This document shows, in pieces, positions 17,701 through 61,823 of a stretch of 64,000 nt of DNA. A program made the position numbers and the translations under genes. Each line of letters starts with the position of its first letter. The stretch's first letter is position 1. The notes under the pieces were generated by a model. That model made no database searches. It was not told the DNA's origin and saw only the letters and a list, made by a program, of their open reading frames with translations. Source of the DNA: Octopus vulgaris (taxonomy: Eukaryota); the NCBI GenBank assembly GCA_951406725.2, contig OX597821.1, forward strand, positions 79,112,001 through 79,176,000, given 5' to 3'.

Positions 17701-20700
17701 TGGCAATCATGATATAATATATATTTCATCATCAGCACATGTTTCTGACTGCATTAAATTTCTGTTAATATTACAAATCTATGCACATCAAAACAATTCA
17801 CAACAAATTAAAAGCATTAACATTTTAATTGAAGACTAATTAAAGATGACTGATGTTGGTATAGTCTATATATGATCCATAATTGAAAACGTCATCTGTT
17901 ATTTTAGTAGCCAGTCACGTAGTATTAGCTGTGGAAGGCAACTCGTTCCTGAACAGAAGCCATGCTGAATGTAAGTGAGCAAGTTTTGTTCTTGGAACGT
18001 AATCGACGAATTTCTGACAACGTATCTCATGACTTGGTTGTGGCTAAGTACACGTCAAAAAGAATGGTGTTCTGTTTCTTCTCAATGTAAACTCATAGAG
18101 AAATTATAAAATATTTTGAAAATTTGAAACCCGTTGAAAAATATATGGAAAATGTAGTCCTACAATTGTATTTAGAAGTGGGAATCATGTTTTCCAAATA
18201 GCGAATAAGAATATGGTGATGTTGATGACAATGGTGGAGATGATGATGATGATGACTCTTGCGTCTATTGTTCTAGACAATTTGGCACTGATGAGAATTT
18301 TCTACATTGTCTAAGGCTTTTTGCAGTTCTTAATGAATTTATGGTTACGTAGAATTTGCTTAAGTCTGGTGTCTTAATAGCATATTGGAAGATTTTGGAC
18401 TATGATATTGAAAGCTTCTTTGTTCTTTGTTCATGGGGTTGTATGTGGCGATATAAGCTAGTGCTGCTTTGTGGGTATATATGTTGTTGTGATTGACTTT
18501 TCTTAATGTTTAAATATCAATCGATTTTGCACGTTTAATTTCTTGATTTATGGGCTGAGTTGGGTAGCGTCTGTCGTGGAATACATTTATAAGTTCTTGA
18601 AATCTTAGTTCTCTGGTATATTTTCGGATACTATGGTGCACATACATGCATGGCGAGAGAATGCATGGGATTCAGTGAGAAATTTACGAAGAAAAACTAG
18701 GTAATAAGGAAATATATTCATAAAATTTATAAGAAAGGCGGATTAATTAGTAAAAAAAAAGAAGAAAAACAATAAAATTTGAAAGTTGTAGAGACAGTTA
18801 ATAATAACAATATACTCTTAAACATGCAATTATAAGGCAGAGTCATGGATGTTAATCAGCGTTATCTAGAGATAAACACACAAACATAAGTCAATACACT
18901 CTCATACATTGACTTATGCACAAAGCACTGATATATATATATATATATATATATATATATATATATATATATATATATATATATATATATATATATATAT
19001 ACCCAAAATGTTATACATACCAATACATATTTATATTCACATTCTTCACAGACACACCTATTTGCAGACATTCACAAACAGTCACACATTTCTATCGAAA
19101 AAGAACGAGAATGTAAAGAGAGAGAAGGACAGGACGCGAAACAAAATGGGAAGATTTTGAATATATAGTAATATATTGTTAATGAAATTTTTATCAACAA
19201 TACTTACAGATACATTAAACTGGGTAGATTATCGAAGGTTCCTACTTGGATTGTCTCGATATTATTTTCATACAAATATCTGTAGCATAAAATGTCAGTT
19301 GATCAGATAACATATGAAGGAGTATTATTGTAAAATATTATTGTCACCGAAATGTCTATAAAATAAAATTTTAGATTAGAAAATTTATAGAAGTGTTTTA
19401 TGATAAAAGGTAAAATATGGCGAAACAATTACTTGATGGAGGAGAAAATAAGAGGATGTGGATGAACATGATGATTATATTGAGGATGAAGAGGAGGTGT
19501 ATAGTGTTGGAGGTGGTGGTGGTAGTATGGATGCGAGGAAGAGACTGAGGACAGGAGGATGGTGGTAGTATTGATGAAGATAAGGTTGTTACTAATAGTG
19601 GTTGTGAAGTTTTTGATAACGATGATGCTGATAATATTTATAATGATGATGCTGATTTTGATGACGTCTTGAAGCTGATGCTGTTTCTGCATAATGATTA
19701 TGTTGATGACGATAAAATTAAGTGTGTGAGAGCTGGTGCAGGAAAGTGTGATGATGGTAATGTCGATGATGGTGATGAATACGATGAGCCTGTCGATAGA
19801 AAAAAGTAAAAAAAAAGAAGGAAAACATGATGTGAAAAAAGTTATAGATGACGAAAGGAAAAATGTTTAATAGTTGGAAGAAGCTGGTGAAGGAAGAGGA
19901 GGAGAAAAAAGAAAACGAAAATGATACACAGAGACACAGCAGTGTAGAATAGATGCAGAACGAAGATAAGAAGGAAGAGAAAAGGAGAGCACGGATAAAG
20001 ACCAACAACAACATCAACGAGAAAAAATATAACAGAACGGAAATGCGAAGATAAAAGCAGATGAATGGCGATGAAATCTGGAAGAAACTTAAAAAGAAGG
20101 ATCCGTGGAAATTGAAGAATAAGATAAGGATAATGAAGTAGATGTAAGATACCTAGTGGAAATACAAGAAGTGAAATAAAAAAGAAATAAGGAAAAGGAG
20201 GAAAATAAATAAGAGAATGCGTAGAAGAAGGAGGAGTTGCAGTAGAAGAACAGGTAGAATAGAAGAGACGAAGAAGAAGCAAATGAGGAGAATAAAAAGA
20301 TAAAGAATATAAAGAAGGACAAAAATAGAATGAAGTAGAAAATTGAGAACAAGACGAAAAAGAAAAAATAAAAATGAAGAAAAAGAAAACAAAGAAGCTG
20401 TAATCAATGAAAAACAGAAGAAAATAAAGAAGGGGGAGGAGAAGGAGAGAAAATTGAGTTTTGAGAGGAGAAAGAGTAGGAGGAGGGGAAAGTTGTGGAG
20501 GCAGCAGACGTGGTCATCGTATAGAAGATGATTTTGTGGCTTAAGCCAGGAGGATGGTGATAGTGCTGATGAAGTAACTGTTGCTGTTCCTCATGATTGT
20601 GATGGTGATGTTAATGGTAATGATTTTGATGAGGATAATTATGATGATAAAGACAATGATTTTGATGTTGATGTTGGTGTTATTGGTGTTTCTGATGACG

Positions 20701-61823: not shown

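What the first reader, a model, noticed from the sequence alone, without database searches (positions are those of the whole stretch)
19208..61823. Cassette of fully interchangeable LRR micro-exons: candidate splice-diversified (VLR- or Dscam-like) receptor
Seen: all 12 LRR exons are phase 2-2 and end in CT or TT. Any exon can therefore splice to any later one and give Leu (or Phe), never a stop or frameshift. Each exon is one solenoid turn and the exons are separated by 0.7-11 kb introns. Known: lamprey VLRs diversify LRR modules by DNA assembly, and arthropod Dscam diversifies by alternative splicing of duplicated exons. Inference: exon skipping or unequal crossover here could produce many LRR combinations. 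Symmetry alone also occurs in constitutively spliced LRR genes, so this is a hypothesis.
Basis: inference. Interest (0 to 1): 0.75.

Follow-up and report, generated by a model that had tools for sequence, protein, structure and literature searches.

The report
Octopus fifty-repeat LRR adhesion receptor
These twelve mini-exons are the end of a 50-repeat binding arm predicted to belong to one giant octopus cell-surface receptor (an adhesion GPCR), and because related genes carry anywhere from 0 to over 40 such exons, the arm likely changes by inherited DNA duplication and loss rather than by being spliced differently from cell to cell.

Summary
Observation confirmed, interpretation partly. The 12 minus-strand exons are real, phase 2-2, end CT or TT, with introns of 668-11,495 bases. 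They are exons 38-49 of 50 one-LRR exons in a roughly 305-kb octopus adhesion GPCR gene: signal/LRRNT, 50 LRRs, LRRCT, three-finger-like domain, eight SEA-like+HRM units, GAIN, GPS, 7TM. The family has 40-65 copies per domain; 20 fully spanned paralogs carry 0-37 LRR exons, 13 with broken exons inside the array. Block periodicity shows growth by duplication of DNA. The symmetry itself is ordinary: the intron lies in the invariant Leu codon, also in unrelated LRR genes here. One probable RNA contig matches exons 44-45-46 exactly, in order; the only clear skip seen passes over a splice-dead paralog exon. Skipping of intact exons is annotated for one O. sinensis paralog, so it can occur, but Dscam-like or VLR-like mechanisms are not supported. 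Binding-face hypervariability is strong in a sister subfamily, weak in this gene. The family is known (Ritschard 2019, group 3); the closest working analogue is brown-algal ROCO. This scan already reported this same gene from the adjoining window, and the family from other DNA.

The parts
61752..61823 (-). LRR exon 38 of 50 (72 nt, phase 2-2, ends CT)
60256..60327 (-). LRR exon 39 (72 nt, ends CT)
55629..55700 (-). LRR exon 40 (72 nt, ends CT)
54376..54447 (-). LRR exon 41 (72 nt, ends CT)
42812..42880 (-). LRR exon 42 (69 nt, one codon shorter, ends CT)
40625..40696 (-). LRR exon 43 (72 nt, ends CT)
33316..33387 (-). LRR exon 44 (72 nt, ends TT); joined to exon 45 in an exactly matching contig
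32576..32647 (-). LRR exon 45 (72 nt, ends CT); followed by exon 46 in the same contig
30341..30412 (-). LRR exon 46 (72 nt, ends CT)
25180..25251 (-). LRR exon 47 (72 nt, ends CT)
22702..22773 (-). LRR exon 48 (72 nt, ends TT)
19208..19279 (-). LRR exon 49 (72 nt, ends CT)
16786..16857 (-). LRR exon 50, the conserved terminal repeat of the family (72 nt, ends AT)
11950..12119 (-). LRRCT-like cap exon (170 nt, phase 2-1); no Pfam hit, named from its Cys pattern and position
9782..9873 (-). First exon of a three-finger (Ly6/uPAR)-like domain (92 nt, phase 1-0)
5589..5772 (-). Second exon of the three-finger-like domain (184 nt, phase 0-1); weak Pfam UPAR_LY6_2 E 0.21; a relative is named ly6/PLAUR-like by NCBI

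Best explanation
The 12 exons are repeats 38-49 of a 50-exon LRR array that is predicted to form the ligand-binding arm of one octopus adhesion GPCR, and the array likely grew and still changes by unequal crossover of exon-plus-intron blocks in the germline, with most transcripts likely joining the exons in order. Shown: exon order and splice sites from signal/LRRNT exon (G000:C8:79,267,650) through 50 LRR exons, cap, three-finger-like domain, eight SEA-like+HRM units, GAIN, GPS and 7TM exons (to about 78,963,000); block periodicity; wide variation of exon number among paralogs; ordered joining of exons 44-45-46 in one contig. Inferred: one transcript spans the whole gene; the phase symmetry matters because it lets blocks be gained, lost or silenced by splice-site decay without breaking the frame; the junction lies inside the concave beta-strand, so each gain or loss would also create a new binding rung; the receptor would signal by the usual GAIN/GPS route on binding a variable extracellular ligand (non-self or cell-identity; unknown). 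Occasional in-frame skipping is likely but secondary.
For: Architecture: Pfam LRRNT E 1.4e-6 and 7tm_2 E 8e-12; GPS 56.5 bits over a 22.5 cut-off at C8:79,003,520; 7TM exon 100% identical to an O. sinensis ADGRG2-like protein; every C-terminal exon placed in order by tblastn with paralog proteins that join LRRs to a 7TM. Duplication: exons 12-31 are 82-85% identical at lags 3, 6, 9, 12 and 62-64% at other lags; flanking introns are duplicated with them. Family: 59 cap, 65 three-finger, 50 LRRNT and 40 7TM matches in G000, lower bounds. LRR-like exons in 20 paralogs spanned from LRRNT to cap: 0, 3, 3, 4, 5, 6, 6, 7, 7, 9, 9, 11, 12, 13, 13, 13, 11, 14, 14, 37; at least 46 in a partly spanned one; 33 of 262 exon-like hits in 24 stretches fail an automatic intactness rule, against 0 of 50 here. 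Two paralogs 92-95% identical at their 5' end have 5 and 13 exons. Constraint: framework codon positions 1+2 differ 7-18% among duplicate exons of this gene, flanking introns 21-32%. RNA-like data: record 1 of X1 matches exons 44 and 45 with 0 differences across a GT..AG joint and runs on into exon 46; the O. sinensis model P0015 holds the leader and exons 1-5 letter for letter, in order; a joint in X4 fits a paralog passing over an exon that has lost its acceptor.
Against: Only 2 of 49 junctions of this gene were seen in RNA-like contigs, in 1 of the 4 runs laid; contigs drop rare variants, so skipping may be missed. RefSeq lists three isoforms of one O. sinensis paralog, two of which each lack one intact LRR exon. 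One low-depth contig (3.7) could be a multi-exon skip in paralog C29:13.88. No contig links the LRRs to the 7TM of this gene. The second HRM exon of the first SEA-like+HRM unit is one base short in the assembly, so the full-length frame is broken there unless that is an error or the unit is skipped. Variation among individuals was not measured.
Confidence: 0.75

Rival explanations
1. Splice-diversified receptor: cells skip different subsets of the 50 symmetric exons and so display many LRR surfaces from one gene.
For: No forward junction gives a stop or frameshift. Single-exon skip isoforms are annotated for one O. sinensis paralog. Brown-algal ROCO genes with the same 72-nt phase-2 exons are reported to have multiple splice variants (PMC11378527, abstract and section 11). 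One ambiguous low-depth junction.
Against: Exons 44-45-46 are joined in order. All 50 donors are near consensus (45 GTAAGT) with 45 CAG and 5 TAG acceptors. Of the paralog junctions I could assign by eye, all follow genomic order or pass over a dead exon. The same exon form occurs in LRR genes outside the family. Annotated skips could arise from reads of paralogs with other exon sets (inference).
Confidence: 0.13
2. The array is a largely neutral run-away expansion in a decaying copy, or yields only a secreted ectodomain, because the frame breaks in the first HRM unit.
For: One-base deletion in a C run of the first unit's second HRM exon; eight near-identical 8-kb units (97-99% among most) suggest unchecked recent expansion; 13 of 20 paralogs carry broken exons; the tail-to-tail neighbour has a TGA in its GPS exon.
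Against: 0 of 50 LRR exons broken, framework under purifying selection (pN/pS 0.32-0.59 in three duplicate classes), 7TM exons intact and 97-100% identical to O. sinensis; skipping one whole phase 1-1 unit would keep the frame (what the sequence shows); homopolymer errors are common in long-read assemblies (own knowledge).
Confidence: 0.1
3. Somatic DNA assembly of LRR cassettes, as in lamprey VLRs.
For: Cassette-like modules; VLR-type hypervariable concave positions in the C30/C31 subfamily; the LRR part of a paralog model resembles VLR folds, tied with many other LRR proteins.
Against: The germline gene is complete and each cassette is a normal spliced exon between LRRNT and cap; an RNA-like contig matches germline order and sequence exactly. 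No test of somatic DNA was possible.
Confidence: 0.02

Closest known systems
Octopus-specific adhesion GPCR expansion, group 3 of Ritschard et al. 2019 (PMC6408891; passages seen; supplements not seen)
   Same: Octopus-expanded class B receptors with GPS and adhesion 7TM; LRRs reported in 5 of 22 sequences; tandem co-localisation; expression mainly outside the brain.
   Different: The passages seen do not describe one-LRR exon arrays, 50 repeats, the three-finger-like or repeated SEA-like+HRM domains, or 40-65 copies. Placement in their tree was not tested.
Brown-algal ROCO LRR-GTPases (Zambounis et al., PMC3341825, passages; Teng et al. 2024, PMC11378527, abstract and section 11)
   Same: One LRR per 72-nt phase-2 exon, exon shuffling, four positively selected concave sites, reported splice variants; proposed immune receptors. 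This is the closest 'works like'.
   Different: Cytoplasmic ROC-COR GTPases of algae, unrelated to a 7TM receptor; convergent.
ADGRG6/GPR126 and ADGRA2/3 (GPR124/125) adhesion GPCRs
   Same: Best Foldseek match of a paralog model is the GPR126 ectodomain (E 6.6e-11), which has SEA-HRM-GAIN (recalled); ADGRA receptors have LRR-cap-Ig-HRM-GAIN (recalled).
   Different: Here LRRs are followed by a three-finger-like and SEA-like domain, no Ig found; repeat number varies from 0 to 50; orthology not tested.
Lamprey/hagfish variable lymphocyte receptors
   Same: LRRNT-LRR-cap solenoid of 24-residue modules; variable concave residues in the sister subfamily.
   Different: VLRs are assembled somatically into an incomplete germline gene and lack a 7TM (recalled; somatic recombination also stated in PMC3341825); here the gene is complete and exons are spliced.
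Arthropod Dscam1
   Same: Tandemly duplicated exons in a surface receptor.
   Different: Dscam uses mutually exclusive Ig half-domain exons (recalled); here neighbouring exons are joined together and a solenoid needs many at once.

Membership tests
Adhesion GPCR | Secretin-type 7TM (7tm_2) | tested here: met
   Pfam E 8.1e-12 on the TM5-7 exon; TM1-7 exons placed in order
Adhesion GPCR | GPS motif just before TM1 | tested here: met
   PF01825 56.5 bits at C8:79,003,520-651; HL-T cleavage motif in the exon
Adhesion GPCR | GAIN domain | tested here: met
   Exons match the GAIN region of P0002/P0009/P0013; Pfam GAIN E 7.4e-6, 26.0 bits against a 26.5 cut-off, on paralog P0012; Foldseek hits to HormR-GAIN structures for paralog P0009 (low-confidence model)
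Adhesion GPCR | LRR arm and 7TM on one transcript | tested here: inconclusive
   Same strand, matching phases, and paralog models P0009 and P0012 join them; no contig spans it for this gene; one-base deletion in HRM unit 1
Octopus adhesion GPCR group 3 (Ritschard 2019) | Falls in the octopus-specific class B clade of that paper | not tested
   Domain content and expansion agree; their sequences were not fetched and no tree was built
Variable lymphocyte receptor | Incomplete germline gene with flanking donor cassettes | tested here: not met
   Complete LRRNT-50 LRR-cap order, all cassettes with canonical splice sites
Variable lymphocyte receptor | Somatic assembly in lymphocyte-like cells | not testable with these tools
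   No tissue-matched DNA; the one exact contig follows the germline
Variable lymphocyte receptor | No 7TM; GPI-anchored, secreted or single-pass | tested here: not met
   GAIN-GPS-7TM follows
Variable lymphocyte receptor | Hypervariable concave-face residues | tested here: inconclusive
   Strong in the C30/C31 subfamily; in this gene these codons differ 16-54% against introns 21-32%
Dscam1-type splicing | Mutually exclusive use of duplicated exons | tested here: not met
   Exons 44, 45 and 46 in one contig; other parts of the array not assayed
Dscam1-type splicing | Conserved docking/selector pairing elements | tested here: inconclusive
   Crude 10-mer count: no word shared by more than 18 of 50 upstream flanks, top words are microsatellite, none of the top 15 complementary to the first intron
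Brown-algal ROCO | ROC-COR GTPase domain | tested here: not met
   Downstream exons encode three-finger-like, SEA-like, HRM, GAIN and 7TM parts
Brown-algal ROCO (works like) | 72-nt phase-2 one-LRR exons with varying number among paralogs | tested here: met

The most novel reading that the evidence does not exclude
Octopuses have an inherited variable-recognition repertoire built on an adhesion GPCR scaffold: dozens of genes trade, duplicate and silence one-LRR exons, selection diversifies four binding-face codons, and in-frame skipping in giant arrays such as this 50-exon one adds cell-level combinations, serving immunity, allorecognition or sucker/skin contact sensing.
Probability: 0.25. Interest if true: 0.8.

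Novelty: new variant of a known kind. Interest (0 to 1): 0.5.

Why it matters
The family is hidden from annotation: public models split this gene's orthologue into short pieces (a 296-aa LRR protein and a 252-aa 7TM protein). Read whole, it is a receptor of predicted very large size in a family whose binding arm varies from 0 to 50 repeats and, in one subfamily, changes almost only at the binding face. If the ligands are non-self or cell-identity molecules, this gives cephalopods a testable candidate for variable recognition, convergent with brown-algal ROCO genes. The specific claim of Dscam- or VLR-like diversification is not shown, and the symmetric exon form alone is ordinary.

Tried and rejected
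Six-frame LRR search without introns found nothing. LGR/RXFP-type receptor considered from memory and dropped: the 7TM is 7tm_2 with GPS. Long open frames at paralog cap exons were microsatellite, not intronless copies. Sequencing runs: no RNA holder listed on record; 20 of 24 rows held the 7TM exon, labelled RNA only by guess, and a neighbour gene is 99% identical there. First read-laying on 16600-33600 was swamped by a SINE-like repeat; exons 48 and 50 had no cover in 4 runs, which is no evidence either way. Second laying showed 20 of 24 loose ends and 23 of 29 pieces; several paralog junctions (X10 rows, X4 record 16) could not be assigned. Protein Atlas gave no usable hit for the three-finger/SEA/HRM region. 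The AlphaFold model of paralog P0009 was poor (mean pLDDT 46); it supports a beta-alpha-beta-beta-alpha-beta SEA-like segment at 258-352 only loosely and says nothing on the three-finger part. No Pfam SEA hit. Paper searches (listings, with passages read only for PMC6408891, PMC9712504, PMC3341825, PMC11378527) found no description of these exon arrays in octopus; the library lacks most subscription papers, and the supplements of PMC6408891 were not opened. Stretches C31:5.01, C8:78.86-78.90, C29:14.07, C29:14.32 and C29:14.47 did not reach from LRRNT to cap and were left out of the 20-gene count.

Full report
Observation. The window is G000:C8:79,112,001-79,176,000; its named relatives are all from Octopus. 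No LRR reading frame shows in six frames, but a splice-aware scan finds 12 minus-strand exons between 61823 and 19208: 11 of 72 nt and one of 69 nt, all AG..GT, phase 2-2 and stop-free, 10 ending CT and 2 TT, with introns of 668-11,495 bases. Non-seed exons score 83-99 bits over a background of -83 (sd 16).

The whole gene. The array continues. A 13th exon lies at 16857, and 37 more lie upstream of the window, 50 in all, none broken. A signal-peptide/LRRNT exon ending in phase 2 lies at C8:79,267,650 (Pfam LRRNT E 1.4e-6). Downstream come a cap exon (12119-11950), two exons of a Cys-rich three-finger-like domain (9873-9782, 5772-5589; weak Pfam E 0.21), eight five-exon units of a SEA-like segment plus HRM, about 8 kb each and mostly 97-99% identical, then GAIN, GPS and 7TM exons to about 78,963,000. 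The TM5-7 exon is 100% identical to an O. sinensis protein named adhesion GPCR G2-like, and paralog models P0009 and P0012 join LRRs to GPS and 7tm_2. The SEA-like label rests on a low-confidence model of a paralog and a best Foldseek match to the GPR126 ectodomain; it has no Pfam support. The second HRM exon of unit 1 is one base short in the assembly; whether real or an error is open. That the whole is one transcript is inferred.

Is the symmetry special? The intron falls after the second base of the invariant Leu codon of LxxLxL, so CT/TT endings and stop-free junctions follow from LRR conservation. Of 1,225 forward junctions none is a stop. An exon-shaped pattern hits 659 places in the genome (control 4), and among the first 100 listed are clusters on C2 (10.99 Mb), C3, C4 and C7 (95.6-95.9 Mb) that lie at none of the family's cap or three-finger hits. 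The same 72-nt phase-2 exon is reported for brown-algal ROCO genes (PMC11378527, section 11). Symmetry permits skipping but is no evidence of it.

How the array changes: DNA. Exons 12-31 show a three-exon period (82-85% identity at lags 3, 6, 9, 12; 62-64% otherwise), exons 35-39 a two-exon period, and exons 42-45 resemble 46-49; intron flanks were copied with the exons. The family has at least 59 cap, 65 three-finger, 50 LRRNT and 40 7TM matches, mostly on C29-C31. Twenty paralogs were spanned from LRRNT to cap and hold 0-37 LRR-like exons; a partly spanned one holds at least 46, with a near-identical five-exon block repeated. Thirteen of the 20 have at least one broken exon inside the array; 33 of 262 hits in 24 stretches fail an automatic intactness rule, which may misjudge a few. 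Two paralogs that are 92-95% identical around their first exon have 5 and 13 repeats. C29:15.19 begins with four exons of the C29:15.36 type and continues with C29:14.07-type exons, a likely mosaic (by eye). An exon intact in an O. sinensis model is reduced to its 3' half in the matching G000 gene, whose leader is identical. Unequal crossover is the inferred mechanism; variation among individuals was not measured.

How it is spliced: thin but ordered. Runs were labelled RNA only by guess. Laid on exons 44-45, one contig of X1 (1 of 4 runs) matches both exons with no difference across a 668-base GT..AG joint and continues with the first 30 letters of exon 46. Paralog contigs that I could assign by eye follow genomic order (C29:15.19 exons 27-28; C29:14.32 neighbours in 4 of 4 runs), and a joint in X4 fits passage over an exon that has lost its acceptor. 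One contig of depth 3.7 could be a multi-exon skip in C29:13.88 but fits an unfetched paralog at least as well. The O. sinensis model P0015 has the leader and exons 1-5 letter for letter in order. Against a purely constitutive reading, three RefSeq isoforms of one O. sinensis paralog hold four LRR exons, or lack the first, or lack the second. Donors here are near consensus (45 of 50 GTAAGT), and a crude search found no docking/selector words. Contigs drop rare variants, and only 2 of 49 junctions were seen.

Selection. In this gene, duplicate exons show pN/pS of 0.32-0.59 (three classes); framework positions differ 7-18% and introns 21-32%, while the four binding-face codons differ 16-54%: constrained framework, relaxed to mildly elevated face. 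In the C30/C31 subfamily the face is hypervariable: 10-12 residues at positions 1, 3, 4 and 23 among 54 distinct exons, and in 25 disjoint pairs chosen by intron likeness these codons differ at 111 of 200 first and second bases against 51 of 3,298 intron bases; framework third positions differ 16%. The four positions were picked from the same data, and the pairs are related, so the size of the effect, not the p-value, is what counts. Because the junction splits the concave strand (positions 22-23 from one exon, 1-4 from the next), gain or loss of an exon would also make a new rung (inference from the LRR fold).

Comparison. It is an adhesion GPCR by 7TM, GPS and GAIN, and very likely of the octopus-specific group 3 of Ritschard et al. 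(PMC6408891, passages: LRRs in 5 of 22 sequences), though not placed in their tree. It fails membership of VLRs (complete germline gene, 7TM) and of Dscam-type splicing (neighbouring exons joined). It works most like brown-algal ROCO genes (PMC3341825 passages; PMC11378527). Seven paper searches found no account of these arrays in octopus. After forming this reading I found that the scan had already reported the same 50-repeat gene from the adjoining window (e1-8669773) and the family from other DNA; those are unchecked AI notes and add no independent support.

Verdict. A real and unusual gene: new variant of a known kind. Best reading: germline exon-level birth and death in a receptor binding arm, mostly ordered splicing (0.75). 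Splice diversification as the main source (0.13), decaying or secreted-only copy (0.10) and somatic assembly (0.02) remain as rivals. Interest 0.5.

Noticed in passing
G000:C8:79,024,000-79,095,000 (L023, L022, L031-L036): Eight five-exon SEA-like+HRM units in the same gene, most 97-99% identical over about 8 kb; paralog models have one unit. The first unit's second HRM exon is one base short.
   Followed up: partly
G000:C30 15.5 Mb and C31 1.5-10.8 Mb (L071-L104): Subfamily whose LRR exons differ far more than their flanking introns (1.5%), even at framework third positions (16%); suggests intron homogenisation with old, selected exon variants.
   Followed up: partly
G000:C8:78,895,607-78,941,115 (+): Tail-to-tail neighbour with a 99% identical TM5-7 exon, a TGA in its GPS exon and no LRR exon in the 40 kb before its cap exon.
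   Followed up: partly
G000:C5:141,880,853-141,891,926: Four LRR exons on the minus strand mirror four on the plus strand with near-identical sequence: an inverted duplication inside an array, or an assembly fold-back.
   Followed up: no
G000:C29:15,083,014-15,183,076 (L158-L163, L144-L148): 37-exon paralog that looks like a mosaic of two subtypes.
   Followed up: partly
window 50755-53097 (+): 781-codon open frame in the 11.5-kb intron that looks like a Penelope-type reverse transcriptase (label recalled, not tested).
   Followed up: no
window 36288-38114 (-), 46066-47169 (-), 49613-50227 (+), 56576-58606 (+), 41510-42169 (-), 3111-3659 (-): Fragments resembling LINE reverse transcriptases, a Tc1/mariner-type transposase and a Helitron-type helicase (labels recalled, not tested).
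   Followed up: no
window 3877-4709: 165-base tandem repeat, 5.1 copies, 90% matches.
   Followed up: no
G000:C8:79,282,699-79,312,972 (L043-L046): Tandem duplication with about 12.4-kb and 17.9-kb offsets, 99% identical, upstream of the start codon.
   Followed up: no
window 28030-28443 and 31277-31773: SINE-like repeat matched by very many contigs of the probable RNA runs.
   Followed up: no
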